Shown: positions 3,436 through 27,087 of the stretch, piece by piece | Position numbering within the stretch: the stretch's first letter is position 1 | Layout: each line of letters begins with the position of its first letter | NCBI GenBank assembly: GCA_046758125.1 | Contig: JBHHZR010000003.1 | Span: forward strand, 1,875 to 65,874 | DNA from: Nitrosopumilus sp. | Lineage (GTDB): Archaea; Thermoproteota; Nitrososphaeria; Nitrososphaerales; Nitrosopumilaceae | Reading direction: 5' to 3' | DNA: 64,000 bases | The notes under the pieces: model-generated | What the model was told of the DNA's origin: nothing | The model's input: the letters and a program-made list of their open reading frames with translations, nothing else | Database searches by the model: none | Made by a program: the position numbers and the translations under genes

Positions 3436-5199
3436 ATGTCGATCTCATTTAATCTTGATAAAAAACTCATTTTTTTAGTATTGGTTGTGTCAGTTGTTGC
3501 TCTTTCAATAACAGGATATCTAAGCTTCAATTATGCAGATCAGATTTTAAAGCAAAGAGCAGGAGAACAGTTAGTTGGAGAATCGACAGTACGTGGAGAA
3601 ACTCTAAGATTACTTTTTGAATCACGAATTGAACAGAATAATATTCTTGCAAGTGATCCAATGATTCAACTTTTAGTTTCAGAAATGAATGATGTTCCTA
3701 CAGAGAAATTAAAAAACATTAAAGAAGATAATCGTAGAGATTTTTTAATTCAAGTTCAAGCATTTCAAGAATTAATTGGATTCTCAATAGGGTTTGAGGA
3801 TGTAAAAATAATTGGTACAAATGGAAAAGTTTTCTTTTCTCTTGTGGGAATAACAGATGAAGATTTTTTTGAGAGTTCATTATTTCAAAGAGGATTAAAA
3901 GAATCTTTCATTAAATTTGAACCTACAGAATCAGGTAAAAAAATGATTGTTGTATCTCCAGTGTTTGCTAATGACAGCAAAATAGGAGATGAACCAATAG
4001 GAGTAATTATTTCAAGAATGAGAACAGCAACAATTGATAGTGTTTTACTAGAAAGAAGTGGATTAGGAGAAACTGGAGAAGCATACATTGTCAGTGATCA
4101 GTCTTTGATGTTATCAGAATCTAGATTTATTGAAAATACAATATTCCAACAAAAAGTGGATACTCTAGGTGTTCAGAAATGCTTCAATGAAGGACAAGAA
4201 CATGTGGGAATTTATCCTGATTATAGAGGCATCTCAATTTTTGGATCTTCATATTGTGCAAAAGATTTAGGAATTGTTTTGCTTGTTGAAATTGATGAAG
4301 CAGAAGTAGAAAAACCAATTGATATACTAGAAGATAGAATTTTTCAAACGGGAATAGCAATCACTTTGGGAATGGCAATTGTTGCTTTTGTAATTTCAAA
4401 GTCACTTTCAAGACCTCTTATCAAATTAAGAGATGCAGCAAAAAATATTGAGAGTGGAAATTTTGAGGTCAGAACCAATATCAAAACAAGAGATGAAATT
4501 GGAGAATTATCTTATGCATTTGATTCAATGGCACAAAAACTACAAGATTCATTAATTGAGATCAAGGAAAAAGAAGAAGTTATCAAACAACAAGAAGAGA
4601 TTTTGTTGAAATTTTCTCAACATGTTCAAAATGATTGTGTAGGAGTAATTGATATGAAAGATTCTACTAAAATTTCAGAAAAATTATCAGATCAAAGTAT
4701 TACCAAAATGTATGAAATCTTTCTAAACTTTATGGCAAAAATTGTTCGTGAACACAATGGTGAAGTAATAAAAAATATTGGTGATGCTTTGATGTTTAGA
4801 TTTCCAAATGTTGATCCTAATGATTCTAAAGCAATAAAAAATGTTTTAGAATGTTGTTTGCTAATGATTGAATCGCATGATAAATTAAAAGAACAACTTA
4901 ATGCAGAAGATCTGCCTACAATAGATTATAAGATAAGTGCAACATATGGTTCTGTAAAAGTAGCTGAAAGTACTACTTCTAACATAGCTGATATTTTTGG
5001 ACCTACAGTTAATCGCTGTTTTAAGATCAATTCACTTTGTCCAGGAAATAGCGTAGTAGTTGGTATCAATTTGTATGAAATGGCAAAAGATTTTCCTGAA
5101 TACGAATTAATGCAGTTTTGTTCTATTGAAATGAAACAAAAATATGGTTACAGTATATTTGAGCTTAAAAGAAAAATTGTTAACTCCAAAAATGATTAA
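3436..5199 (+). CDS. Membrane sensor with Cache-like extracellular domain, HAMP and class III adenylate/guanylate cyclase domain
   Basis: Two TM helices; HAMP (SRPLIKL...DEIGELSYAFDSM); cyclase motifs IDMKDST, IKNIGDALM and DIFGPTVN. Confidence 0.85.
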   Translation: MSISFNLDKKLIFLVLVVSVVALSITGYLSFNYADQILKQRAGEQLVGESTVRGETLRLLFESRIEQNNILASDPMIQLLVSEMNDVPTEKLKNIKEDNRRDFLIQVQAFQELIGFSIGFEDVKIIGTNGKVFFSLVGITDEDFFESSLFQRGLKESFIKFEPTESGKKMIVVSPVFANDSKIGDEPIGVIISRMRTATIDSVLLERSGLGETGEAYIVSDQSLMLSESRFIENTIFQQKVDTLGVQKCFNEGQEHVGIYPDYRGISIFGSSYCAKDLGIVLLVEIDEAEVEKPIDILEDRIFQTGIAITLGMAIVAFVISKSLSRPLIKLRDAAKNIESGNFEVRTNIKTRDEIGELSYAFDSMAQKLQDSLIEIKEKEEVIKQQEEILLKFSQHVQNDCVGVIDMKDSTKISEKLSDQSITKMYEIFLNFMAKIVREHNGEVIKNIGDALMFRFPNVDPNDSKAIKNVLECCLLMIESHDKLKEQLNAEDLPTIDYKISATYGSVKVAESTTSNIADIFGPTVNRCFKINSLCPGNSVVVGINLYEMAKDFPEYELMQFCSIEMKQKYGYSIFELKRKIVNSKND

Positions 5200-6347
5200 T
5201 TTTTAGAAAATCTAAATTTTGATGTCCAACTACCTTTTTGTTTAGTTGTCTTTAATGAAAGGTTGTCTAGCATGGCATATGTAATTGTAAATCCATTTCC
5301 TACCATAGTAGCATCTTTTGGATAATTTTCTTTGTCAGGAACAAATTCATCTGCTAAATCTTTAATTTTTTTAGTTTTTAGATCAAATAGTCGTATTTTT
5401 TTTCCATTTTCAAGTTTAATGATTGCATCACCACTTAATCCTTGAATTGAATAGGTTTCAAAGAATCTAATTGAACCACCTTCTTTTAATTCAATTATAG
5501 AATCATAGGTAAGTTTTCCCCCATAAAACAAAACTTCACGTGCAGATATTGTTACATTATCTTCTACATTAAGTACAATTATTGTATCTGCATCAAGCGA
5601 GACAGTATTGACAACATTTTCAGCAACAATTTTTCCATTTGGAGCTGAAACATGTGTTCTATTTTCTTGAATCTGAAAAACACCAACTCTTCCATCTGGA
5701 TCCTCTACTCTATATTTTCTTCCAAAGATGTTTCCTACAATAATATTTCCATTATCTGCTATAATTGCAGCACCATTTTCAATTTTGTATTTATTTTCTA
5801 AAGCATCAAGAAATTTGAAATCTCCTTTAGTTAGATGTATGTTTGTTTGAAATTCTTGTGTCCATGATGGACTAGAGATATTTCCTTGCATGATTATTGG
5901 ACCATCATAAGTAAGACTTCCTGCCATAAAATTTCCTTTTATTGATAAAGCACCGTTTGCTTTTCTTTCTAGTTCAATTTCACCTAAAGTTTTTGATCCA
6001 AACAATCTTGTTGCCGTTGCATTTGATCTGTTCAAAGCAGCTGCCCATTCTTCTGCTGATTTCATTTCTTTTGAAAGTTGTTGGCCTAGGATCTGATTTT
6101 TTCTTCTAACATCAGCTTCAGAATCACCTGAATATACCCTAGAATTTTTTAGCTTTTCAATATCAGTTTCAGGATATTTTTTTCCAATCTTGAGATCCTC
6201 GTATGCTTGTTTAATTTTGATAAATTGTTCATTTTCACCACCACGATCTGAATGATATTGTAAGGCTAATCGTCTAAATGCATCTCGAATTTCTTTCTCA
6301 GTAGAATCTTCTAAAATTCCTAAAATATCATAATTACTTTCTACCAT
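5196..6347 (-). CDS. DnaJ (J-domain) protein with uncharacterised C-terminal domain
   Basis: NYDILG...EIRDAFRRLALQYHSDR...FIKIKQAYE J-domain; the HPD motif reads HSD. Confidence 0.8.
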   Translation of the reverse strand: MVESNYDILGILEDSTEKEIRDAFRRLALQYHSDRGGENEQFIKIKQAYEDLKIGKKYPETDIEKLKNSRVYSGDSEADVRRKNQILGQQLSKEMKSAEEWAAALNRSNATATRLFGSKTLGEIELERKANGALSIKGNFMAGSLTYDGPIIMQGNISSPSWTQEFQTNIHLTKGDFKFLDALENKYKIENGAAIIADNGNIIVGNIFGRKYRVEDPDGRVGVFQIQENRTHVSAPNGKIVAENVVNTVSLDADTIIVLNVEDNVTISAREVLFYGGKLTYDSIIELKEGGSIRFFETYSIQGLSGDAIIKLENGKKIRLFDLKTKKIKDLADEFVPDKENYPKDATMVGNGFTITYAMLDNLSLKTTKQKGSWTSKFRFSKN

Positions 6348-6449: not shown

Positions 6450-6872
6450 CTATTTTACAACTAGTGTTGGGATCTTTGTTTTGTGCATGACATAATTTGA
6501 TGTACTTCCAAGAAATGTTTCTTTTGCACCACCCATTCCTCTTGCACCAATTACAATCATGTCATATTTCCCTTTTTGAGCAAATTTAACAATCTCAGAA
6601 CCAGTATGACCACCAGCAGTTTTGTACTTGAAAGTGATACCAGATCTTTGTGCTTTTTGCATTGCAGGGCCAATTGCTTTAGCAGCTTTATTTTGTGCAT
6701 CATCTCGCATTTTTTTGGTATATTTTATTCCTGCTGCTAAAGGTAAGTGAAATACATAAAATCCTGTAATTTCAGCACCGCTGCCTTTTGCAATATCAAT
6801 TGCTCTTTCTAATCCCCTGTTAGAATTTTTTGAACCATCAACAGGAACTAGAATTTTTTGGACATTTGCCAT
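6450..6872 (-). CDS. Universal stress protein (Usp)
   Basis: KILVPVDGS...DMIVIGARG...FLGSTS. Probable start at 6872 (track start 6890). Confidence 0.92.
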   Translation of the reverse strand: MANVQKILVPVDGSKNSNRGLERAIDIAKGSGAEITGFYVFHLPLAAGIKYTKKMRDDAQNKAAKAIGPAMQKAQRSGITFKYKTAGGHTGSEIVKFAQKGKYDMIVIGARGMGGAKETFLGSTSNYVMHKTKIPTLVVK

Positions 6873-6996
6873 ATTTGGAAGTTTAATCATTACAATATAA
6901 AAAGAGTCATCAATTTCCAGAGTTGAAATTCAAATTATAATCAGAATTGGAAATTATATCTTCAATTTTTATACAAAAAATTTATCAAATTAAGAA

Positions 6997-7851
6997 TTGT
7001 CAGTAATTAATATTTCAAAAAAACCAATTTCAATCATAAAAAATTCTACAATTTCTGATTGCATCAGAATGCTCTTAAACACTAAGATTAGTAGATTAGT
7101 TGTTATAGATGATGGAAAACATATTGGAATAATAACTGAAAAAGACATAGGATTGTTTTTGTTTTCAGAAACTACAAAACAAGGGCTTGATGATATTCTA
7201 ATTACTACTATTATGAAACCAATTGAATATGTAAACAAAGAGATCACTCCAGAAGAATCAGCTAAAATTATGATTGAAAAAGGAATTAGTTCCTTAGCTG
7301 TTGGAAAAAACGAACAAGTAGAAGCAATTTTTACTAAAAGTGATCTTGTAAAGTATCTTGTTGATAACTTTTCAGATAAAAAGAAAGTTGTTGATTTTAT
7401 GACTCATGACTATGAGTTTACTCATACTGCTGCTCCTTTGTATAAAGTTGTTAGAAAGATGTTAGAAAAGAAGATCTCTAGGATTATTGTAAAAAATCAA
7501 AATGAAGAACCAGTAGGAATAATATCATTTAGAAATTTGTTTAGGATCTCAATTGAGCTTGGAAGTGAGGAGGATTATTCTGGATTCAGTCTTTCTGAAA
7601 ATATTAGGCGTGGATTTCTATCAAAAGAAGGGTTTGGCAATATTTCATTAGCAAGAGACATTATGACAAAAGGACTAATCACGGTAAAATTTAATGATGA
7701 TTTAGTTGATGCATGTAAAATTCTCTTGGATAATAATGTTAGTGGCTTAGTAGTATTAGATGGAAATGAATCAATTGCGGGTATTATCAGTAAGACTGAC
7801 ATTATCAAAGCATTACAAGATAATATTTCTGAAGAAACAATAAATCAATGA
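6997..7851 (+). CDS. CBS-domain protein (four CBS repeats)
   Basis: Repeated VV..G...GIIT/S..D CBS motifs; TTG start. Confidence 0.85.
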   Translation: MSVINISKKPISIIKNSTISDCIRMLLNTKISRLVVIDDGKHIGIITEKDIGLFLFSETTKQGLDDILITTIMKPIEYVNKEITPEESAKIMIEKGISSLAVGKNEQVEAIFTKSDLVKYLVDNFSDKKKVVDFMTHDYEFTHTAAPLYKVVRKMLEKKISRIIVKNQNEEPVGIISFRNLFRISIELGSEEDYSGFSLSENIRRGFLSKEGFGNISLARDIMTKGLITVKFNDDLVDACKILLDNNVSGLVVLDGNESIAGIISKTDIIKALQDNISEETINQ

Positions 7852-7870
7852 CTAAATCATAATTACAATC

Positions 7871-8554
7871 ATGAAATGGCATTTTGATGATTTTATTTAT
7901 GGTGCAATTGATGGAGCTGTAACGACTTTTGCAATTGTTGCTGGTGTTGTTGGAGCTGGATTACCATCAGGAATAATTTTGATTCTAGGTTTTGCAAATT
8001 TGTTTGCAGACGGATTTTCAATGGCAGCAGCAAATTATCAGGCATCAAAGGCAAGAAATGAATTTGTTCAGATGAAAAGAAGACAAGAAGAATGGGAAAT
8101 TGATAATCTAGAGGAACAAGAGAGAGATGAAATAAGAGACATTTACAAAGAAAAAGGATTCAAAGATGAATTATTAGAAGAAGTAGTTAGAATTATCACA
8201 TCTAGAAGAAAGGTTTGGGTAGATACAATGATGAAAGAGGAATTAGGATTAATTGAAGATGAGAAAAATCCACTAGATAGTTCTTTTAGTACTTTTGTTG
8301 GTTTTAATTTGATTGGATTAATTCCATTAATACCATTTATGATTTTTATGATAATTGGTATTAAACCAAATTCAGAAGCATTTGTTTATTCTACAATATC
8401 AGTAAGTGCTGCATTCTTTCTAGTTGGAATGATCAAAGGAGAAATTGTTAAAAAATCAAAAATTCGTGCAGGGATCTATACACTTATCATAGGTGGAATT
8501 GCAGCAATTGTAGCGTATCTAGTAGGATATGGATTAAATTTTCTAGTTAGTTAG
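7871..8554 (+). CDS. VIT1/CCC1-family Fe/Mn transporter
   Basis: [18 protein letters not shown] and [14 protein letters not shown] motifs; Glu-rich cytoplasmic loop. Confidence 0.92.
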
Positions 8555-8565
8555 GAAAATAGTAT

Positions 8566-9861
8566 ATGTCTGAATTAAAGCGTCACATGGGACTTTTTCA
8601 TCTAACTATGTATGGTGTTGGATTAATTCTTGGTGCAGGGATCTATGTCTTAATTGGAGAAACTGCTGGATTTGCAGGAAATTCTATGTGGATTTCCTTT
8701 TTGTTAGGTGCAATTGTTGCAATATTTGCTGGATTAAGTTATGCTGAACTTTCAGCTTTGTTTCCAAAAGCAGCTGCAGAATACACTTTTGTAAAAAATG
8801 CATTTAAGAATAATTTTTTTGGTTTCATAATTGGTTGGTTAACAGCAATTACATCAATTATAGTTGCTGCAACTGTAGCTCTAGGATTTGGAGGATATCT
8901 TACTCAGTTTATTGAAATACCCATCACAGTTGGAGCAATTATTCTAATTGGAATTTTGTCGATAGTAAATTTTATTGGAATCAAAGAATCTGCTTGGGCA
9001 AATACCATTTTTGCAATAATTACTGCGGGGGGATTGATACTCATAATATTTTTAGGATTCTCAACAGAACCTGTTGAATCCATAGATTATTTTGAAATGC
9101 CAAATGGTATTACAGGAATAATTCTCGCATTTGTTTTGATATTTTTTGCATTTATTGGATTTGAAGATATGGCAAATGTTGCAGAAGAGGTTAGAAGGCC
9201 TCACAAAACGATTCCTAGAGCCATTATCTTATCAATAGTAATTACTGGAGTAATTTACATTCTAGTTTCATTATCTGTAATTCGAATTTTAAATTGGGAA
9301 GAATTAGCTGTTTCATCAGCCCCTCTTGCTGATGTTGCACATTCGGTTTTAGGAACAAATGGAAGCATTGCTTTATCACTAATTGCGCTTTTTGCAACCG
9401 CAAGTACTGTTTTGATTACATTGGTTGCGGGAGCACGAATCATGTATGGAATGGCAAAAAGTAACTCATTACCACAATTTTTAGGCAGAATTCATCCTAA
9501 AACAAAGACTCCATGGATTGCAGTAATTGGAATATTAGTTACTTCAGTAGGATTTGCTTTTGTTGGAGATATTGTAATTGTTGCAAATATCGTTGTTTTT
9601 GCTGTAGTTATTACATTTGCAGCAATTAATTTAGCAGTAATTGTTCTACGATATACAGAACCAGTTTTAGAGAGACCTTTTAGAGTTCCAGTAAATATTG
9701 GAAAGTTTCCAATATTACCGTTATTTGGATTTGGAACTACAGTCTATATGGCATTACAGTTTAAAATTGAAGTTGTACTTGTAGGTATAGCAATTATTGG
9801 GATTGGTATGGTTTTGTATGTAATTTTGAAAAAAAGAAATAATTTTATAGACTCTAGTTAA
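8566..9861 (+). CDS. APC-family amino acid permease
   Basis: GLILGAGIY TM1 and FAFIGFED TM6 motifs; about 12 hydrophobic segments. Confidence 0.92.
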   Translation: MSELKRHMGLFHLTMYGVGLILGAGIYVLIGETAGFAGNSMWISFLLGAIVAIFAGLSYAELSALFPKAAAEYTFVKNAFKNNFFGFIIGWLTAITSIIVAATVALGFGGYLTQFIEIPITVGAIILIGILSIVNFIGIKESAWANTIFAIITAGGLILIIFLGFSTEPVESIDYFEMPNGITGIILAFVLIFFAFIGFEDMANVAEEVRRPHKTIPRAIILSIVITGVIYILVSLSVIRILNWEELAVSSAPLADVAHSVLGTNGSIALSLIALFATASTVLITLVAGARIMYGMAKSNSLPQFLGRIHPKTKTPWIAVIGILVTSVGFAFVGDIVIVANIVVFAVVITFAAINLAVIVLRYTEPVLERPFRVPVNIGKFPILPLFGFGTTVYMALQFKIEVVLVGIAIIGIGMVLYVILKKRNNFIDSS

Positions 9862-10514
9862 TTTCTTTTAGATTTTGTTAGCGCAACAATTGCAATAGTA
9901 ATTCCTAGAATACCAACTCCAATTCCAATATATCCAACATTCATCTGTTGTTTACTTTCTTCAAGATTTGCTACTGTATCTTTTAATTCATTAATATCTT
10001 CGATTAATGCAGTATGACCATCAATCATTTGTTGTAGTGTAATATCTGATGGTTCAGGAAATTCTATGTAAGCACGTTCTGCAACTTTTGGAGGATGCAT
10101 TGATAGACTAATTGGAGTGTCTTTAATTGTTCCTAATATGTTTGCTTGATAAAACCCAGAAACAGTTGGATTGACAAATGCATGATACTTTCCTGGAAGA
10201 TTATGATCAGGAGAAATATGAAGTGTTATGCTTTCATCTTTGTATATTAGTTTTATCTTAACTGTTTCTTGTAATCCCTCAATTCCATTTTGAAACTTTT
10301 GAGATCCTGCACATTCGATTGGTTTAGTAATTTCAGGACATGAAAATAAGGGACTAACATAGAATTCAATTGCGTTTGTTTCTCCTGAAACAACTGGCTC
10401 ATTCATCCAACCAATTTCTACCCTATAATCTCCAACAGCGTCAATTGTATGTCCATATGCTACACCAATTAAGCCTGGAATAATTAACAAAACCAGTAAT
10501 AGATAAGATTTCAA
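9858..10514 (-). CDS. Exported, membrane-anchored hypothetical protein
   Basis: Signal peptide ending AYG-H, short coiled coil, C-terminal TM helix; TTG start. Confidence 0.65.
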   Translation of the reverse strand: MKSYLLLVLLIIPGLIGVAYGHTIDAVGDYRVEIGWMNEPVVSGETNAIEFYVSPLFSCPEITKPIECAGSQKFQNGIEGLQETVKIKLIYKDESITLHISPDHNLPGKYHAFVNPTVSGFYQANILGTIKDTPISLSMHPPKVAERAYIEFPEPSDITLQQMIDGHTALIEDINELKDTVANLEESKQQMNVGYIGIGVGILGITIAIVALTKSKRN

Positions 10515-10593
10515 TACTAAAAAAACTATAGTTTGTTTTTAAAAATGTTTTAGTAATTTCTGTAAATGAGTTTGAATTTTGATGTTTTACCAA

Positions 10594-12039
10594 TTATGCA
10601 TCTGCATACATTGAAACTTCCCAAGCTGTGGGAGTTTGTGCAAATGCAGTATATTCTTTGTATTTTAGTTCAGTATATTTACCAAGAAAATCTTTGGTGA
10701 AAACCTCTTCTAAGAATGCAGAATCACTTTGTAAAGAATCAAGTGCTCCTTTTAGTGATACTGGCAGAGATCCAATGTTATACTCATGTTTCTTTTCAGC
10801 AGTAAGTTTGTAGACATTTTCTTCAATTGGATCACCAGGATCAATTTTATTTTTAATTCCATCTAGTCCTGCTAATAATAATGCAGATTCTAAAAGATAG
10901 ATATTTGCAGTAGGATCAGGTACACGATATTCTAATCTTTTACTTTTTTCTTGATTTCTAGTGTACATTGGAACTCTGATTGCAGCAGATCTATTACCTA
11001 ATCCCCAACAAACATTGACAGGTGCTTCAAATCCTGGAACTAGACGTTTGTATGAATTTGTTGTAGGGTTTGATATTGCACAAAGAGCTGATGCATGACT
11101 CAAAATTCCACCAACATAATATCTTCCAGTTTGACTCATCTGAGCTACTTTATCATCTTGATCATACATTGCATTTGTATTTTCGTTCCACAAGCTCTGA
11201 TGAGTATGCATTGCAGATGCATTATCACCAAAAATTGGTTTTGGCATAAATGTTGCAACTTTATTTTTTCGTTTAGCTTTGACTTTGACTAAATTTTTCA
11301 CTCCAATTACATGATCAGCCATCTGGATCATTTCATCATATTCAAGATTAATTTCACATTGACCAGAAGTTGCGACTTCATGATGTTCTGCTTCTATTCT
11401 AATCCCAAAGAAATTATACAAATCATCACATACATCCTTTCTAAACCCCTCTAGAGTATCCTTAGGTTGAGATGGGTAATATCCTTCTTTCAAATTAATT
11501 GCAGTACTAACATTTCCTTTAGCCCAAGGTGATTCTTTAGATTCAATAGAATATCCCGAACCACCGTATGATTGGGTTGCAGCATATGGAGATGGATAAA
11601 CATTGATAGTATCAAAAACAAAAAATTCTATTTCAGGTCCCCAGTTTGTATGAGTTAATCCAAACTCTTTGAGCTTCTTTGATGCTTTATGTGCAATTCC
11701 TCTTGAATCCCTATTGTATCTTGAACTTTCATCAGTACTTCCATCATACAAATCACAGAAGATTCGAGCATTTCTTCTATTGCTAGGATCATAATCAGAT
11801 GGAAGAATTTTAAATGAGGTTGGGTCTGGCATCAAAATCATATCAGAGTGATTTACAGATTTGAATCCAACAATTGAGCTTGCATCCAATTTCTCAAGGC
11901 CGTTTACAAAACTGTTTTCATCAATTGCATAGCTTGGCATACCGACGTTATGCAGTTCACCGAAAATATCTACAAACCAAAAATCAATAAATGAAATTTT
12001 TTCAGCTTTTATGGTTTGTAGCACTTGTTCTGCGTTCAA
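10594..12039 (-). CDS. glnA: Glutamine synthetase type I paralogue (variant active-site loop)
   Basis: GPEIEFF, HHEVA.SGQCEI, FMPKP, NSYKRLVPGFEAP and RLEYRVPDP motifs. NASAMH replaces NGSGMH. Confidence 0.9.
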   Translation of the reverse strand: MNAEQVLQTIKAEKISFIDFWFVDIFGELHNVGMPSYAIDENSFVNGLEKLDASSIVGFKSVNHSDMILMPDPTSFKILPSDYDPSNRRNARIFCDLYDGSTDESSRYNRDSRGIAHKASKKLKEFGLTHTNWGPEIEFFVFDTINVYPSPYAATQSYGGSGYSIESKESPWAKGNVSTAINLKEGYYPSQPKDTLEGFRKDVCDDLYNFFGIRIEAEHHEVATSGQCEINLEYDEMIQMADHVIGVKNLVKVKAKRKNKVATFMPKPIFGDNASAMHTHQSLWNENTNAMYDQDDKVAQMSQTGRYYVGGILSHASALCAISNPTTNSYKRLVPGFEAPVNVCWGLGNRSAAIRVPMYTRNQEKSKRLEYRVPDPTANIYLLESALLLAGLDGIKNKIDPGDPIEENVYKLTAEKKHEYNIGSLPVSLKGALDSLQSDSAFLEEVFTKDFLGKYTELKYKEYTAFAQTPTAWEVSMYADA

Positions 12040-12119
12040 TTGATAATTTTAGAAAATCAATTTACTAATGTTATCATGTAAAGATAGATTTGACAAGATG
12101 GTCAGGTAAATTATGAAAA

Positions 12120-13466
12120 TTAACTGCTTTTTGATGTCTTGAGTGCATTTAATTCATCTTCAAAGAAGAATTTGTCACCAAATGCAGGTTTTAAATCATC
12201 TAACCAAATCGCATTTTCGTCGTATTTTGCAAAAAATGGTTCTTTAACCCAGTTTGGGTTTCGCCCCTGCAAAAATCTTAAAACAAGTAATTTTTGATCG
12301 TTAAATTCTGCAGTTCCAACAACCTGAACTTTTCCAGGGGTTGCTGACATACTAGGTCCGCGTACGGTTCTTGCCAACCCACTAACAGAAGAATATGCTT
12401 GGCTAAAGATTTCATATGCTTTGACTAAAGGAACTCCGAAATAATGCTGAGCGCCTGTGTCTCTTACAACAAACATGTAGTAGGGTATACAACCAAGTTG
12501 AACTTGTTTGGTCCACATTTTTGACCACATTTCTGCATCGTCATTAATATGAGCTAAAAGTGGAGATTGTGTTCTAATTTGAGCACCAGTTTTTCTAACT
12601 TCTTTAATTGCAGATTTTACGGCATTTGTTGACAGTTCATTAAGATGATTAAAGTGCGCCATAATTGCAAGGTGTAACCCGTTATCAGTTATTTTTCTAA
12701 AAATATCTAACATTTCTTGTGAGTCAGCATCTGTCAAAAATTTGTAAGGCCAATAAGAAAGAGCTTTTGTTCCAATTCTGATTGTTTTGAGGTTTGGAAG
12801 TTTAGATTCGATAAGAGCATCTATATATTTTGAGAAAATCTTTGCTTTCATAATCATAGGATCACCACCGGTAAATAAGATATCAGAAATTTCTGGATGT
12901 TCTGAAACATATTGTATTAGTTGTTCACCTTCTTGCATAGCAAATTTCATTTCATCCATTCCAACAAATTGTGGCCATCGAAAACAAAAACTACAATATG
13001 CATGACAAGTTTGACTTTGACTAGGGAAAAAGAGGCAGGTTTCTTTGTATTTATGTTGCATTCCATAAAGTTTAGTTCCATCTTTTAGTGTTGGAACATT
13101 TAGTTCCATTTGTCCAGCTGGATGTGGATTTAATTGTAAACGAATTTCATTTGCAACAGATGCAATTTCTTTTTTATCAGAATTATTTCTTAAAACAGAT
13201 TCCATTTTTTTGTAATGTTCTGGTTTTAACATTTCCTTTTGAGGAAAAGTCAATACATACATTGGATCAGTAGGTATGTTTTTCCAATCAATTAATTGTT
13301 CAACAACATAATTATTTGCTTTAAATGGCAAAACATTTCCTACAACTTCCATTTCAAATTGAGTTTCTTTTGAAATATTCTGGATTTGTGGGAGAGTGCG
13401 GAAATTTGATAATGTGTATGATTTTAATGATGGATTCTCATCCCAAACTGATTCTTGATAGGTCAT
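12120..13466 (-). CDS. kamA: KamA-family radical-SAM amino acid 2,3-aminomutase (possibly glutamate 2,3-aminomutase)
   Basis: CHAYCSFCFR (CxxxCxxC), LFTGGDP, RIGTK, PYYMF, and the PLP Lys in PGK. Confidence 0.85.
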   Translation of the reverse strand: MTYQESVWDENPSLKSYTLSNFRTLPQIQNISKETQFEMEVVGNVLPFKANNYVVEQLIDWKNIPTDPMYVLTFPQKEMLKPEHYKKMESVLRNNSDKKEIASVANEIRLQLNPHPAGQMELNVPTLKDGTKLYGMQHKYKETCLFFPSQSQTCHAYCSFCFRWPQFVGMDEMKFAMQEGEQLIQYVSEHPEISDILFTGGDPMIMKAKIFSKYIDALIESKLPNLKTIRIGTKALSYWPYKFLTDADSQEMLDIFRKITDNGLHLAIMAHFNHLNELSTNAVKSAIKEVRKTGAQIRTQSPLLAHINDDAEMWSKMWTKQVQLGCIPYYMFVVRDTGAQHYFGVPLVKAYEIFSQAYSSVSGLARTVRGPSMSATPGKVQVVGTAEFNDQKLLVLRFLQGRNPNWVKEPFFAKYDENAIWLDDLKPAFGDKFFFEDELNALKTSKSS

Positions 13467-13596
13467 TTAGTAAATAGTACTCAAACCCTTGTTAAAGGTT
13501 ACATGTTTCTTACGCATAAAATTTTTTGAATTTGATTAGAATATGGGTTAACCTTTGTATTCTAGAACATAATTTTGGTTAGAATAGTGATTAAAC

Positions 13597-15336
13597 ATGG
13601 CTGAAGAAGAATTATCACAAATTTCTGTAGGGGAGTTTGAGACTGTTTCTGAGCTTTTAGCATCATCTGAGTCACTTCAATTAGCATTTTTCATTATGAT
13701 TGTAGGAATAATTGGAATAGTTATTGGGTATAGAAAATTTTCATCGTGGGTAGGTTCACAAAAATTCTATTATCAAAGACCTCATTTTTCAAGATTTGTA
13801 CGTAGATCTGTTCTGCCATTTTTTGCTATTGCGTTAATTACTGCAATTAATGTTTACATTCAAACTGGTGAATTATTAGGAGAAGATTTATCGCTAGTTC
13901 AAGGAGAGGATATATCTCCTCAAGAAACATTTGCAAAGATTCTCAATACTTTTAATATTTTAGTAATTGGCTATACAATTTCACATCTGATTCCAATTGT
14001 TCTTACTAAACGTGATAAATCCATCTTAGAAAAAGAGGATTTTGAAGCATGGTTTGAGATGAGAGGATTTGTTGATGATAAAGATGATCTATTTCATAAG
14101 CTGTACAAGTGGGTTCCACCAAAAATTACTCCTGAAGATATTGAAGAAGAAAAATTCCAAGAAATGCTCAAGACTGAAAAAGGAACGCAATACTTGGAAC
14201 AATTTCGAACAACAAAAGGTAATCCAATTGGAGGATATGAGAAATTAGTTGAAAATCCATTTGAAGAATGGAAGAAATCAGAACGTACAAAATATGAAAA
14301 ATATTTCCAAAATTGTATTACTGGTGAAAATCAATCTGGTAGAAAACTAAGACTTGGTGCAAAACCTGATGAGATATTTCCAATTGATATATGGCGAGAA
14401 GAGAAAAGAGTGCATGGTTATGAACCAATAATTCCAAGTTCACGTCCTCCTGGATATGCAAAAAAGAAAAGAGAAGGTATTCCAAAGTCTGCAAAACAAA
14501 TACTTCCTATAGGAATTTTCATTGCAACAATTTTGGGAGTTGTTGCATGGTGGGGAGTAGATTTGATTGTTATTGCAACAGCCACAGGAGGATTTTCAAT
14601 TGGTTTAGGTTTGGCATTACAAGAAACTATGCAGAATTATTTTGCTTATATCATGATTAGAAAAGACAAAATTTTCGTTGAAGGGGATAGAGTACAACTT
14701 GAGACTGGTTATAATGGATATGTGCATAAAATCACGCCTAGAGTAACATACATCAGGGATGCATTATACGAATCAATTGCAGTAATTCCAACTAGACAAT
14801 TAGTTTCTGCACAGATAATCAATTACACCAAAGAAAACAAACTTGTTCCAGCAGTTGTTAAAGTTGGAGTTTCTTATCTAAATAATCCTAGACAAGTTGC
14901 ATCAATTTTGGTGAAAGTTGGTAAGCGAGGAATGAAAGAGATTGTTGATGTAAAGGGCAGACATCTAGTAAGACAAAATAGATGTCCATATCTAAATCAA
15001 AATAAACCAAGTTGTGGTTGCGATAAAGAACTCCATGTAGAAATATCACAACCTGTTGTTAGATTTAATGATTTTAATGATTCATCACTTGATTTTTCAA
15101 TGTGGGTATATGTCAGAGATTATGGTGCTCAATTCAAAACAAAAACTGATTTGAGGATGATAATGTATGAAGAATTCAAGAAATATGATATTAGAATTCC
15201 ATGGCCAATTCGAACTGTCTATCAAGGAGATGAGAAGAAAGAATTTGAAGAGATTAGTCAATTAGATCCAGATAGAAATAAGGTAATTGAGGACTATGGT
15301 CTTGGGGATCTTGGACGTGGAGAAGGAGACGATTAG
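13597..15336 (+). CDS. mscS: MscS-family mechanosensitive channel with large insertions
   Basis: GLGLALQETMQNYFAYI...GDRVQL...GYVHKI...IPTRQLV...INYT MscS core; FNDFNDSSLDF C-terminal domain. Confidence 0.85.
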   Translation: MAEEELSQISVGEFETVSELLASSESLQLAFFIMIVGIIGIVIGYRKFSSWVGSQKFYYQRPHFSRFVRRSVLPFFAIALITAINVYIQTGELLGEDLSLVQGEDISPQETFAKILNTFNILVIGYTISHLIPIVLTKRDKSILEKEDFEAWFEMRGFVDDKDDLFHKLYKWVPPKITPEDIEEEKFQEMLKTEKGTQYLEQFRTTKGNPIGGYEKLVENPFEEWKKSERTKYEKYFQNCITGENQSGRKLRLGAKPDEIFPIDIWREEKRVHGYEPIIPSSRPPGYAKKKREGIPKSAKQILPIGIFIATILGVVAWWGVDLIVIATATGGFSIGLGLALQETMQNYFAYIMIRKDKIFVEGDRVQLETGYNGYVHKITPRVTYIRDALYESIAVIPTRQLVSAQIINYTKENKLVPAVVKVGVSYLNNPRQVASILVKVGKRGMKEIVDVKGRHLVRQNRCPYLNQNKPSCGCDKELHVEISQPVVRFNDFNDSSLDFSMWVYVRDYGAQFKTKTDLRMIMYEEFKKYDIRIPWPIRTVYQGDEKKEFEEISQLDPDRNKVIEDYGLGDLGRGEGDD

Positions 15337-15381
15337 TTTTATTTTTCTCAAAACTTAAGAATCCCATTAAATCACATTTTC

Positions 15382-16263
15382 TTGTTGAGTAAGATATCAG
15401 TAATTTCAGGAAAAGCTTCAGAAGATTTAGCAAGAAAGTTATCTAGAAAGATAAAGGCTAATCTCGTAAAATCAGAAATTAGAGTTTTTGCTGATGGAGA
15501 AAGTAAAATTACTCTAAAGGGAAGTTTATCAAAAAGGAAATGTGTTGTTGTACAGTCAATTTATCCTCCAGTAGATACAAATTTAGTTCAAGCATTATCA
15601 CTAATTTCAAAAGCTAAAGAAAAATCATCAGAAGTAATTGCAGTCATTCCATATATTGGGTATGCAAGACAAGACAGAGAATTTTTACCAGGAGAGATTA
15701 TTACGATGAAGGTTCTTGGCAAGTTGTTCAAAGGAGTTGGTGCATCAAAAATTCTTGCTGTTGACATTCACAGTATGATTGGCTTCAAACATTTCACTAT
15801 CAAAACAAAAAATGTAACTGCAATTCCGGATCTAGTGAAATATTTCAAGAAATTGAGCCTGAAAAATCCCCTTGTTGTATCTCCTGATCAGGGTGGAAAG
15901 GATAGAGCAAAAGAATTCGCAAAGGAATTTGGGTTAGAGTATATTGCTCTACAGAAAAAGAGAGATAGAAGAACTGGTAAAGTCAAAATTAAAACAAAAA
16001 ACGCAGATGAGGTTGTAAATAGAGATTTAATTTTAGTTGATGATATGATAAGTACTGGAGGGAGTATTATCAAAGCAACACAATTTCTTAAAAAACAAAA
16101 ATGTAAGAGAGTTTTTGTTGCATGTACACATGCCCTTTTAATGAATAATGCAGAAAAGAAAATTAGAAAAGCAGGTGTTTCAAGAATTATTAGTGCAAAT
16201 ACAATTCCAGGTAAAACATCAATTGTAGATGTTTCAAATACAATTGCAAAGGCAATAATATAA
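15382..16263 (+). CDS. prs: Ribose-phosphate pyrophosphokinase
   Basis: FADGES, PYIGYARQDR, VSPDQGG and LVDDMISTGGS motifs. Confidence 0.96.
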   Translation: MLSKISVISGKASEDLARKLSRKIKANLVKSEIRVFADGESKITLKGSLSKRKCVVVQSIYPPVDTNLVQALSLISKAKEKSSEVIAVIPYIGYARQDREFLPGEIITMKVLGKLFKGVGASKILAVDIHSMIGFKHFTIKTKNVTAIPDLVKYFKKLSLKNPLVVSPDQGGKDRAKEFAKEFGLEYIALQKKRDRRTGKVKIKTKNADEVVNRDLILVDDMISTGGSIIKATQFLKKQKCKRVFVACTHALLMNNAEKKIRKAGVSRIISANTIPGKTSIVDVSNTIAKAII

Positions 16264-25626: not shown

Positions 25627-27087
25627 TTGCCCTATAAAGTTAGTCATGGAAAAGCGATCCAAGTAACATACTCACCAGATGAAGTTTTTGCAAGAATTCA
25701 GCATGAGGGAATTCAATTTATTGATCTACAATTTACAGGTCTTACAGGTCGTTTTCATCATACTACAATTTCAGCAAATACATTTACTCCTGAACAAATG
25801 CGGGATGGATTACCTAAACTAGATGGGTCATCAATTATTGGTTTTACTAGCATTGATGATTCAGATCTACTTTTAAAACCAGATCCAAATACATTTGCAA
25901 TTATTCCATGGATGACAGAAAACAAAACAGCCAGACTGCTTTGTGATGTTTATTGGGGAGAAAATAGAGGAAGATTATCAAGAGATCCTAGAGGAATTGC
26001 TCAAAAAGCAGAAGAATACACCAAATCTCAGGGATTTGATTTTAGTAATTGGGGTCCTGAGGTAGAATTCTTTGTTTTTGATAAAGTGTTTTGGGATGTT
26101 TTAACACCATACAAAGGACAATCTTATGCAATTGAATCAAAAGAAGCACCATGGAATCATGATGGTGATGGATATCCAATGGGATTACAAGAAGGATATT
26201 ATCCTAGTACACCACATGATACTCTTACACCATATAGAAATGAGTGTGTAAACATTCTCAACAAAAATTTTGGAATCTTGTGTGATAATCATCATCACGA
26301 GGTTGCAACTGCAGGACAATGTGAGATTGATATTAGATATGATCTTATGACTAATGCGGCAGATGCTGCACAAACTTACAAATATGTTATTAGAAACGTT
26401 GCAAAGAAATTTGGAAAAGTTGCAACAATGATGCCTAAACCAATAGCAATGGACTCAGGTTCTGGGATGCATGTTAATGTTAGTTTATGGAAAGGAAAAG
26501 ATAATGCATTTTATGATCCAGATGATGAGATTGAATTAAGTCAAATTGGCAGATATTTCTGTGGTGGAATTATTAATCATGCAAAAGCATTATCTGCAAT
26601 TTGTAATCCTACAACTAACTCATATCATAGATTAGTACCTGGATATGAAGCTCCAGCATACATTGCATGGAGCTCAGGAAATCGTTCAGCTATAGTAAGA
26701 GTTCCAAAACATCTTACAGGAAAAGAGTATTCACATCTAAAACGACTTGAATTTAGAGCACCTGATCCTTCATCAAATCCATATCTTGTTTTTGCATCTG
26801 TAACAGCTGCGGGAATGGATGGAATAAAAAAGAAGATGGATCCTGGGGATCAGGTACGTGATGATATCTTTAAGATGACTAGATCCGATAGGGCAAAAAG
26901 AGGTATAGGCGTTCTTCCAAAAAGTCTTGGGGAAGCATTAGATGAATTAGAAAGTGATAGAAAATTCCTTAGCCCAATTTATACAAGTGATGTTATAGAT
27001 AAAATTATAGAATTAGAAAGAAGAGATCAACGTGAGATATCTATTAGACCACATCCTCACGAGTTTTATCTTTACTTTGATGTTTAG
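25627..27087 (+). CDS. glnA: Glutamine synthetase type I
   Basis: LDGSS, GPEVEFF, HHEVATAGQCEI, GSGMH, NSYHRLVPGYEAP and RLEFRAPDP motifs; TTG start. Confidence 0.95.
   Translation: MPYKVSHGKAIQVTYSPDEVFARIQHEGIQFIDLQFTGLTGRFHHTTISANTFTPEQMRDGLPKLDGSSIIGFTSIDDSDLLLKPDPNTFAIIPWMTENKTARLLCDVYWGENRGRLSRDPRGIAQKAEEYTKSQGFDFSNWGPEVEFFVFDKVFWDVLTPYKGQSYAIESKEAPWNHDGDGYPMGLQEGYYPSTPHDTLTPYRNECVNILNKNFGILCDNHHHEVATAGQCEIDIRYDLMTNAADAAQTYKYVIRNVAKKFGKVATMMPKPIAMDSGSGMHVNVSLWKGKDNAFYDPDDEIELSQIGRYFCGGIINHAKALSAICNPTTNSYHRLVPGYEAPAYIAWSSGNRSAIVRVPKHLTGKEYSHLKRLEFRAPDPSSNPYLVFASVTAAGMDGIKKKMDPGDQVRDDIFKMTRSDRAKRGIGVLPKSLGEALDELESDRKFLSPIYTSDVIDKIIELERRDQREISIRPHPHEFYLYFDV

What the first reader, a model, noticed from the sequence alone, without database searches (positions are those of the whole stretch)
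10594..12039. Second GS has altered substrate-loop residues
Seen: DNASAMH in place of canonical DNGSGMH, and LDASS in place of LDGSS, while the metal ligands (GPEIE, HHE, H, RLEYR) are intact. The other GS in the window reads DSGSGMH and LDGSS. Established: the NGSG loop contacts the substrate amino group in type I GS. Inference: re-tuned for a non-alpha-glutamate substrate such as beta-glutamate.
Basis: partly seen in the sequence, partly recalled or inferred. Interest (0 to 1): 0.55.

Follow-up and report, generated by a model that had tools for sequence, protein, structure and literature searches.

The report
Aminomutase-linked second glutamine synthetase
Many Nitrosopumilus-type ammonia-oxidising archaea keep a second, subtly altered glutamine synthetase beside the gene that probably makes their main solute beta-glutamate; it may turn that solute into beta-glutamine, but the sequence changes alone do not show this.

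Summary
Window 10594-12039 (minus strand) encodes a complete 481-aa type I glutamine synthetase (GS2). It reads LDASS and DNASAMH where canonical enzymes read (F/L)DGSS and DNGSGMH. All metal, ATP, ammonium and arginine residues are intact.

NASAMH is a clade signature. It occurs in 59 of 60 family orthologues and 119 of 120 database neighbours. It is absent from the other 148 nearest 50%-identity cluster representatives.

GS2 occurs only in genomes that also carry the KamA-like aminomutase (64 of 66; the other two sit at contig ends). It lies directly downstream of that gene in 46.

Each Gly-to-Ala change also occurs alone in ordinary settings:
- NASGMH is the sole GS of Bathyarchaeia-type genomes, two of which have no aminomutase.
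- NGSAMH is found in a sister paralogue beside glutamate synthase genes.

The linkage could also reflect a variable stress island in a strongly syntenic family.

Best reading (about 0.4): a beta-glutamate:ammonia ligase that makes beta-glutamine. Main rival (about 0.3): a conventional, separately regulated GS isozyme.

This scan had already noted the same module in other Nitrosopumilus genomes.

The parts
10594..12039 (-). GS2: complete type I glutamine synthetase paralogue, 481 aa, TTG start
   Evidence: Pfam Gln-synt_N plus Gln-synt_C. TIGR00653 513.9 bits against a cut-off of 429. AlphaFold2 model pLDDT 91.4, TM 0.93 to M. tuberculosis GS 2BVC.
11206..11226 (-). Codons for DNASAMH (residues 272-278): E. 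coli N264, G265A, S266, G267A, M268, H269
   Evidence: Invariant in 59 of 60 orthologues.
11875..11889 (-). Codons for LDASS (residues 51-55): Asp50' loop with G51A
   Evidence: Ala in 57 of 59 orthologues and 114 of 120 database neighbours.
12061..12107 (-). Conserved 46-47 nt element upstream of GS2 (consensus ACCTGAC-N4-TTGACAA-TCTATCTTACTA-N5-ACATTAGTAAA), ending about 22 nt before the start codon; probably a promoter/operator
   Evidence: Alignment of 22 intergenic regions. nhmmer finds it only once in the 1.44 Mb genome, E 5.9e-9, next best E 3. It is kept whole upstream of the relocated GS2 of G110, and its ACATTAGTAA core is kept in G096, G100 and G065. No Rfam match and no consensus RNA fold.
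12120..13466 (-). KamA-family radical SAM aminomutase, divergent; candidate glutamate 2,3-aminomutase, immediately upstream of GS2
   Evidence: TIGR00238 132 bits, below every equivalog cut-off. Arg335 aligns with Asp293 of lysine 2,3-aminomutase 2A5H. Present in 90 of 121 family genomes.
13597..15336 (+). MscS-type mechanosensitive channel, divergent from the aminomutase
   Evidence: Pfam MS_channel_2nd and MS_channel_3rd. Conserved next to the KamA-like gene in most loci.
25627..27087 (+). GS1: the universal (housekeeping) GS of the family, reads LDGSS and D(S/A)GSGMH-x-N
   Evidence: A match in 120 of 121 family genomes.

Best explanation
GS2 is a catalytically competent, dodecamer-type ATP-dependent amide ligase. 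It keeps the ordinary GS chemistry: the distal carboxylate is phosphorylated at the two-metal site and then attacked by ammonia held by Asp50', Ser53', Tyr179 and Glu327. Its amino-group subsite has been reshaped by G265A and G267A in the Asn264 loop and by G51A in the neighbouring subunit's Asp50' loop. The most likely physiological substrate is beta-glutamate made by the adjacent KamA-like aminomutase. That would give beta-glutamine, a zwitterionic solute, in place of anionic beta-glutamate. Expression would come from GS2's own conserved promoter/operator. Shown here: intact catalytic and ammonium-site residues, the clade-specific and conserved triple Gly-to-Ala signature, purifying selection, restriction to aminomutase-bearing genomes, and the usual adjacency. 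Inferred: the identity of the substrate and product, and any osmotic or nitrogen-storage role.
For: All catalytic and ammonium-site residues are kept, and the fold is a standard GS in its active form. Beta-glutamate and alpha-glutamate are both pentanedioic acids that differ only in where the amino group sits. [quoted passage not shown] The signature is conserved across 57-92% identity. GS2 is almost as conserved as GS1, with mean identity to the window copy of 75.8% against 81.7%. GS2 is found in 66 of 121 family genomes. Of these, 64 also have the KamA-like gene, and the other two hold GS2 138 and 831 bases from a contig end. It is adjacent within 150 bp on the same strand in 46 and within 2.3 kb in 5 more. 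All 13 genomes where GS2 is unlinked or on another contig still have the aminomutase. Both genes are present or both absent within genera g11, g15 and g17. GS2 was not found in 70 genomes of other families of the class. Beta-glutamate reaches 730 mM in N. maritimus SCM1 (PMC8269262). Precedent: the GS of Methanohalophilus portucalensis makes beta-glutamine from beta-glutamate (PMC1224877).
Against: Each Gly-to-Ala change occurs alone in GS enzymes with ordinary contexts, so the residues do not demonstrate a change of substrate. Residue 265 contacts the substrate through its main chain, which an Ala keeps. Beta-glutamine has not been reported in Nitrosopumilus; the only metabolome paper found does not mention glutamine in its main text. 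About 26 aminomutase-bearing genomes lack GS2, and it is a pseudogene in G060 and G193, so it is dispensable. Nitrosopumilaceae are strongly syntenic, and GS2 lies in a variable island between the PRPP synthase and a DnaJ-like gene. That island is lost as a block in G017 and lost in part in G013, so co-occurrence may partly reflect physical linkage. In G110 the relocated GS2 sits next to an ammonium transporter and a PII-like gene, a classical nitrogen-assimilation context. GS2 also scores above NCBI's equivalog cut-off for ordinary GlnA.
Confidence: 0.42

Rival explanations
1. GS2 is a conventional alpha-glutamate glutamine synthetase isozyme. It would be kept for a different regulatory regime, such as stress, ammonium level, or tolerance of very high cytoplasmic beta-glutamate or of feedback amino acids that bind the same subsite. 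Its position beside the aminomutase would be inherited synteny or co-regulation, not a substrate-product link.
For: It scores above the TIGR00653 equivalog cut-off and every catalytic residue is intact. G265A alone is the sole GS of several Bathyarchaeia-type genomes, and G267A alone sits beside glutamate synthase genes. The relocated copy in G110 lies next to Amt and a PII-like gene. GS2 has its own conserved upstream element, so it need not be co-transcribed with the aminomutase. The flanking island also carries unrelated stress genes (Usp, CBS, VIT1, APC permease) and is lost as a block.
Against: GS1 is retained in 120 of 121 genomes and suffices in about 26 genomes that have the aminomutase but no GS2. 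So neither a second housekeeping GS nor a beta-glutamate-tolerant one is required. No GS2 was found in a genome that demonstrably lacks the aminomutase. The triple substitution is invariant and unique to this clade. The window's genome lacks the split glutamate synthase cluster that accompanies the sister paralogue.
Confidence: 0.32
2. GS2 ligates glutamate, or beta-glutamate, to an amine other than ammonia, giving a gamma-glutamyl-amine or theanine-like product. Precedents are GlnA2/GlnA3/GlnA4, PuuA and glutamate-methylamine ligase.
For: GS-family paralogues often have this role (PMC8998196; PDB 9QUR among the hits). G51A lies in the loop that forms the ammonium site.
Against: The residues these enzymes replace (Ser53, Tyr179, Asn264, Glu327) are all kept in GS2. 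The gamma-glutamylputrescine synthetase model scores 241.9 against a cut-off of 650. No amine-catabolic genes lie nearby.
Confidence: 0.08
3. GS2 is a decaying or functionless duplicate.
For: Pseudogenes in G060 and G193, and absence from about 45% of family genomes.
Against: Full-length open frames in more than 60 genomes across more than 20 genera. Conservation is close to that of GS1. The active site is invariant and the upstream element is conserved.
Confidence: 0.02

Closest known systems
Type I glutamine synthetase GlnA (GSI; e.g. Salmonella 2GLS/1FPY, M. tuberculosis 2BVC, Synechocystis 3NG0)
   Same: Two-domain architecture and fold (TM 0.93, rmsd 1.7 A to 2BVC). All metal, ATP, ammonium-site and arginine residues match. 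It scores above the TIGR00653 cut-off.
   Different: Gly265 and Gly267 of the Asn264 loop and Gly51 of the Asp50' loop are all Ala. Further clade-specific departures are P-to-S112, F-to-M291 and P-to-I380. It is an accessory gene tied to an aminomutase, not the universal copy.
Glutamine synthetase of Methanohalophilus portucalensis, which amidates beta-glutamate to the osmolyte beta-glutamine (Robinson et al. 2001, as summarised in PMC1224877)
   Same: This is the reaction proposed here, carried out by a GS in an archaeon that accumulates beta-amino-acid solutes.
   Different: There the activity belongs to the cell's GS as purified, and no dedicated paralogue or aminomutase linkage is described. 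I could not reach its sequence with these tools, so whether it shares the loop changes is unknown.
Nitrosopumilaceae GS1 (window 25627-27087) and the GS3 paralogue (G091:C70)
   Same: All lie in the same archaeal GS group in the tree. GS3 is sister to GS2 with support 100 and shares S112, A276 and I380 with it.
   Different: GS1 keeps both glycines but has N264 as S or A and H271 as N, and it is universal. GS3 keeps Gly265 and Gly51 and sits beside split glutamate synthase genes and a nitrite/sulfite reductase.
AblA/AblB module of methanogens (lysine 2,3-aminomutase plus beta-lysine acetyltransferase, N-epsilon-acetyl-beta-lysine)
   Same: The logic is the same: a radical SAM 2,3-aminomutase makes a beta-amino acid, and a neighbouring enzyme neutralises a charge to give a zwitterionic solute (PMC1224877, PMC9128505).
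   Different: The second enzyme here is a GS-family ATP-dependent amidating ligase, not a GNAT acetyltransferase. The aminomutase carries Arg where the lysine enzyme has Asp293.

Membership tests
Type I glutamine synthetase (GlnA, TIGR00653) | N-terminal beta-grasp domain plus C-terminal catalytic domain, with a whole-protein score above the curated cut-off | tested here: met
   PF03951 and PF00120. TIGR00653 513.9 bits against 429.15.
Type I glutamine synthetase (GlnA, TIGR00653) | Ligands of metals n1 and n2 (E129, E131, E212, E220, H269, E357) and catalytic arginines (R321, R339, R344, R359) | tested here: met
   E136, E138, E221, E229, H278, E370, R332, R350, R355 and R372, by alignment to 2GLS.
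Type I glutamine synthetase (GlnA, TIGR00653) | Ammonium site: Asp50', Ser53', Tyr179 and the Glu327 flap | tested here: met
   D52, S55, Y187 and E338.
Type I glutamine synthetase (GlnA, TIGR00653) | Canonical N-G-S-G-M-H glutamate-binding loop (Gly265 main-chain contact) | tested here: not met
   The loop reads N-A-S-A-M-H. Gly is found at these columns in 97% and 92% of 118 representatives. The contact is through the main chain, so activity is not excluded.
Type I glutamine synthetase (GlnA, TIGR00653) | GS fold | tested here: met
   Model pLDDT 91.4. TM 0.93 and rmsd 1.7 A to 2BVC. The oligomer was not modelled.
Type I glutamine synthetase (GlnA, TIGR00653) | ATP-dependent amidation of L-alpha-glutamate as the physiological reaction | not testable with these tools
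   This needs an enzyme assay.
Gamma-glutamyl-amine ligases (GlnA2/3/4, PuuA, glutamate-methylamine ligase) | Replacement of ammonium-site residues (Ser53, Tyr179, Asn264, Glu327), and a score above the family cut-off | tested here: not met
   All four residues are kept. NF045547 scores 241.9 against 650.
Beta-glutamine-forming GS (Methanohalophilus-type activity) | Measured amidation of beta-glutamate at a rate comparable to that for alpha-glutamate | not testable with these tools
   This class is defined only by biochemistry (PMC1224877), and no sequence signature is known. The primary paper (PMC93190) is not held.
Aminomutase-linked solute module | Co-occurrence and adjacency with a 2,3-aminomutase across lineages | tested here: met
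   64 of 66 genomes co-occur, 46 are adjacent and 5 are near. 13 further Nitrosopumilus genomes were checked: 11 adjacent, 2 not. Caveat: the family is syntenic and the genes lie in a variable island.

The most novel reading that the evidence does not exclude
GS2 is a dedicated beta-glutamate:ammonia ligase. If so, many of the ocean's most abundant archaea (and their soil, freshwater and sponge-associated relatives) can convert their main anionic solute beta-glutamate into beta-glutamine, a neutral and nitrogen-rich one. This would happen under the control of a GS2-specific operator, for osmotic adjustment or as a store of ammonia, which is also their energy substrate. It would be the first GS-family enzyme shown to have evolved beta-amino-acid specificity, through a Gly-to-Ala triad around the amino-group subsite.
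Probability: 0.4. Interest if true: 0.7.

Novelty: new variant of a known kind. Interest (0 to 1): 0.5.

Why it matters
Beta-glutamate is the most abundant identified metabolite of N. maritimus (730 mM, PMC8269262), yet the genes behind its metabolism are uncharacterised. Public annotation calls GS2 simply 'type I glutamate--ammonia ligase'. If GS2 makes beta-glutamine, three things follow. A second undetected beta-amino-acid pool would exist in a globally abundant group. Models of ammonia assimilation in these archaea that count two equivalent GS genes would need correction. And the enzyme would show how few changes redirect GS to a beta-amino acid. If GS2 proves to be an ordinary GS, the result still matters for annotation. 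The NGSG glycines, described as perfectly conserved, can each be Ala in working enzymes, so loop motifs alone should not be used to predict new substrates.

Tried and rejected
- RNA switch upstream of GS2: no Rfam family matched window 9500-16000, and RNAalifold gave no consensus structure for 22 aligned intergenic regions. I therefore read the element as a DNA-level promoter/operator.
- Regulon search: the element occurs only once in the genome, so it does not tell nitrogen control from osmotic control.
- GS2 as feeder of a GS-GOGAT cycle: the sister paralogue GS3 is next to split glutamate synthase genes. The window's genome has only a distant Glu_synthase-domain protein (27% identity) and none of the partner subunits. 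My recalled claim that the genome has no such gene at all was wrong, and I dropped it.
- Neighbour U218 (9858-10514): this is a secreted or membrane-anchored protein with no family match, and it stays beside the aminomutase when GS2 moves. It is not part of the pathway.
- Contexts of unlinked GS2 copies (G096, G100, G065): heterogeneous, with a transposase, ArgG/LysX and prephenate dehydratase nearby. No common theme.
- Literature: searches for SCM1 locus tags and for Nitrosopumilus with aminomutase or beta-glutamine found nothing relevant. Robinson et al. 2001 is not held.
I used the genome search instead. The Methanohalophilus GS sequence could not be reached.

Full report
**What is there.** The window comes from a Nitrosopumilus genome (1.44 Mb, 68 contigs, 99.5% complete). 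Record titles of near-identical loci name Nitrosopumilus. The ORF at 10594-12039 lies on the minus strand, starts with TTG and encodes 481 aa. It has both GS domains and scores 513.9 bits on TIGR00653 against a cut-off of 429. An AlphaFold2 model built on a 36-sequence alignment is confident (pLDDT 91.4). It superposes best on M. tuberculosis GS bound to a transition-state mimic (TM 0.93, rmsd 1.7 A). I call this protein GS2. A second GS, here GS1, lies at 25627-27087 on the plus strand and is 44% identical. These are the only two GS genes in the genome.

**The observation.** Aligned to Salmonella GS, LDASS corresponds to D50-G51A-S52-S53, and DNASAMH to D-N264-G265A-S266-G267A-M-H269. All of the following are kept:
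- metal ligands E129, E131, E212, E220, H269 and E357;
- ammonium-site residues D50, S53, Y179 and E327;
- arginines R321, R339, R344 and R359;
- H271 and Y397.

They list Gly246 of the Methanothermococcus enzyme among the glutamate/Mg-binding residues. Gly246 lies four residues before the metal-binding His, so it corresponds to Gly265. [quoted passage not shown] Because the active site lies between subunits, A53 of one subunit and A274/A276 of the next line the same pocket. This follows from established GS structure and was not computed here.

**How unusual the signature is.**
- In 121 genomes of the family, GS2 orthologues (57-92% identical) read DNASAMH in 59 of 60 sequences fetched. LDASS is present in nearly all.
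- All 41 GS1 sequences read LDGSS and D(S/A)GSGMH.
- Of the 120 database proteins closest to the loop region, 119 carry NASAMH.
- An exhaustive HMMER search of 1.84 billion cluster representatives returned 150 nearest clusters. Only the GS2 cluster itself (representative P0003, from a Nitrosotalea MAG) has NASAMH. NASGMH occurs three times, NGSAMH once, and D-A-S-S about ten times.
Of these, 78 are GS2 orthologues of Nitrosopumilaceae-type archaea. The two bacterial hits have no GS similarity.
- At columns conserved in at least 80% of 118 diverse representatives, GS2 departs at only five: P-to-S112, G-to-A274, G-to-A276, F-to-M291 and P-to-I380.

**Association with the aminomutase.** The upstream gene (12120-13466) is a divergent KamA-family radical SAM protein that falls below every equivalog cut-off. 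Arg335 aligns with Asp293 of lysine 2,3-aminomutase, a residue I recall as holding the lysine epsilon-ammonium. This agrees with the earlier scan note that it is a candidate glutamate 2,3-aminomutase.

In the family sample, GS1 matched in 120 of 121 genomes, the aminomutase in 90, and GS2 in 66. For the 66 genomes with GS2:

| Relation of GS2 to the aminomutase | Genomes |
|---|---|
| Directly downstream, same strand, gap of 150 bp or less | 46 |
| Within 0.4-2.3 kb | 5 |
| Far away on the same replicon | 5 |
| On another contig | 8 |
| Aminomutase not found (GS2 is 138 and 831 bases from a contig end) | 2 |

In total, 64 of the 66 genomes have the aminomutase. Conversely, about 26 genomes have the aminomutase without GS2. 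Within genera g11, g15 and g17, three genomes have both genes and three have neither.

Thirteen further Nitrosopumilus genomes gave 11 adjacent and 2 non-adjacent cases. It carries the same order: permease, U218, GS2, aminomutase, MscS. In a class-level sample, GS2 was found in 53 of 80 family genomes and in none of 70 genomes from eleven other families.

The tallies include three genomes flagged as unpublished (G077, G092, G093). They contribute only presence/absence counts. No sequence from them was fetched.

**Evolution.**
- GS2 is a 100%-supported clade in a FastTree phylogeny of 152 sequences. That method gives local support only.
- Its sister is GS3, a rarer paralogue (G091:C70, DNGSAMH, LDGSS). 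Both fall in the group that also contains GS1.
- GS2 identity tracks GS1 identity across genomes, with means of 75.8% and 81.7% to the window copies. This indicates vertical descent under purifying selection.
- GS2 is nevertheless dispensable. It is truncated in G060, frameshifted in G193, and absent from G013, which otherwise shares the neighbourhood.

- Single changes occur in ordinary enzymes. G265A alone (DNASGMH) is conserved in 19 of 20 orthologues of a GS found in Bathyarchaeia-labelled genomes. In five such genomes (95-100% complete) it is the only PF00120 gene. Two of them have no KamA-family gene above cut-off, and none lies within 7 kb in four loci. G267A alone occurs in GS3, which sits divergently beside split glutamate synthase genes (FMN domain, amidotransferase, GXGXG) and near a nitrite/sulfite reductase. 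So each substitution is compatible with what look like ordinary assimilatory enzymes. Only the combination is specific to GS2.
- Linkage may be inherited. GS2 lies in a variable island between the PRPP synthase and a DnaJ-like gene. The island also holds MscS, the aminomutase, a permease, VIT1, a CBS protein and Usp. The whole island is missing in G017, and the part from GS2 to Usp is missing in G013. Joint presence or absence can therefore arise from single deletions.
- One relocated copy looks assimilatory. In G110, GS2 alone moved, leaving the aminomutase next to U218. It now lies beside an ammonium transporter and a PII-like gene.
- The product has not been seen. Beta-glutamine has not been reported in these archaea. 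The metabolome paper reports beta-glutamate at 730 mM and does not mention glutamine in its main text.

**Most likely mechanism.** GS2 keeps everything needed to phosphorylate a carboxylate and amidate it with ammonia. It lacks the substitutions typical of amine-using GS relatives.

Alpha- and beta-glutamate have the same five-carbon dicarboxylate skeleton and differ only in where the amino group sits. A GS would therefore need changes only around the amino subsite, which is where the three Ala residues lie. This is inference.

The supporting points are the dependence on the aminomutase, the 730 mM substrate pool, and the methanogen precedent. In Methanohalophilus portucalensis, GS converts beta-glutamate to the zwitterionic osmolyte beta-glutamine at high salt (PMC1224877). 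Together these make beta-glutamate:ammonia ligase the best single reading, at about 0.4. A conventional but separately regulated GS isozyme is the main rival, at about 0.3.

**Regulatory element.** The 80-nt spacer upstream of GS2 holds a 46-47 nt element conserved across genera. Its consensus is ACCTGAC-N4-TTGACAA-TCTATCTTACTA-N5-ACATTAGTAAA, and it includes an inverted repeat, TTACTA-N8-TAGTAA. It ends about 22 nt before the start codon.
- It is unique in the genome.
- It has no Rfam match and no consensus RNA fold.
- It travelled with GS2 when the gene relocated.

GS2 therefore seems to have its own promoter and operator and need not be co-transcribed with the aminomutase.

**Relation to earlier notes of this scan.** The aminomutase-GS-MscS module had been noted in two other Nitrosopumilus genomes, and the aminomutase in this window. 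One note called the GS only loosely tied to the module. My counts refine this: GS2 is optional for aminomutase-bearing genomes, but it was not found without the aminomutase. Notes on GS-like plus KamA pairs in Desulfobacterota are an untested lead.

**Verdict.** GS2 is a real, conserved, clade-specific variant of type I GS that public annotation does not distinguish. The beta-glutamate hypothesis is plausible and testable, but it rests on genomic association and not on the residues.

Noticed in passing
window 12061-12107 (minus strand): A 46-47 nt element upstream of GS2 is conserved across genera and occurs once in the genome. It contains the inverted repeat TTACTA-N8-TAGTAA and an ACATTAGTAAA box about 22 nt before the start codon. 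It moved with GS2 in genomes where the gene relocated. It is probably a dedicated operator/promoter, and the binding protein is unknown.
   Followed up: partly
window 25627-27087 (GS1) and 41 family orthologues: The universal GS1 of Nitrosopumilaceae is itself non-canonical. Asn264 is Ser or Ala (D-S/A-G-S-G-M-H), His271 is Asn, and the conserved Phe before PKP is Met. Its nearest outside representative (P0005) still reads DNGSGMH.
   Followed up: partly
L226 (G091:C70:15772-29241): A third GS paralogue (GS3, DNGSAMH) is sister to GS2. It lies divergently beside split glutamate synthase genes (FMN domain, a 382-aa unknown, amidotransferase, GXGXG) and near a nitrite/sulfite reductase. The window's genome lacks this cluster.
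   Followed up: partly
L232-L251 (Bathyarchaeia-type genomes, e.g. G364:C1:1025450-1026916): The only GS of these genomes conserves DNASGMH, that is Ala at the glutamate-binding Gly265 position. The literature describes that position as perfectly conserved in archaeal GS.
   Followed up: yes
window 6450-15336; L225 (G013), L227 (G110), L252 (G017): The stretch between the PRPP synthase (15382-16263) and the DnaJ-like gene (5196-6347) is a variable stress island: MscS, aminomutase, GS2, U218, APC permease, VIT1, CBS protein and Usp. It is wholly absent in G017. The part from GS2 to Usp is absent in G013. In G110 only GS2 is excised.
   Followed up: partly
L222 (G110:C1:1171100-1184542): The relocated GS2 of G110 lies next to a 193-aa protein with a partial PII domain and an ammonium transporter gene.
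   Followed up: no
window 12120-13466: The KamA-like protein has Arg335 where lysine 2,3-aminomutase (2A5H) has Asp293. This charge reversal fits an acidic substrate. It scores below all NCBIfam aminomutase equivalog cut-offs, including glutamate 2,3-aminomutase (89.9 against 650).
   Followed up: partly
P0002 (4424 aa) and P0004 (2757 aa): Two database proteins contain 14 and 6 tandem GS-like stretches respectively. They are either giant multi-GS fusions or assembly or gene-calling artefacts.
   Followed up: no
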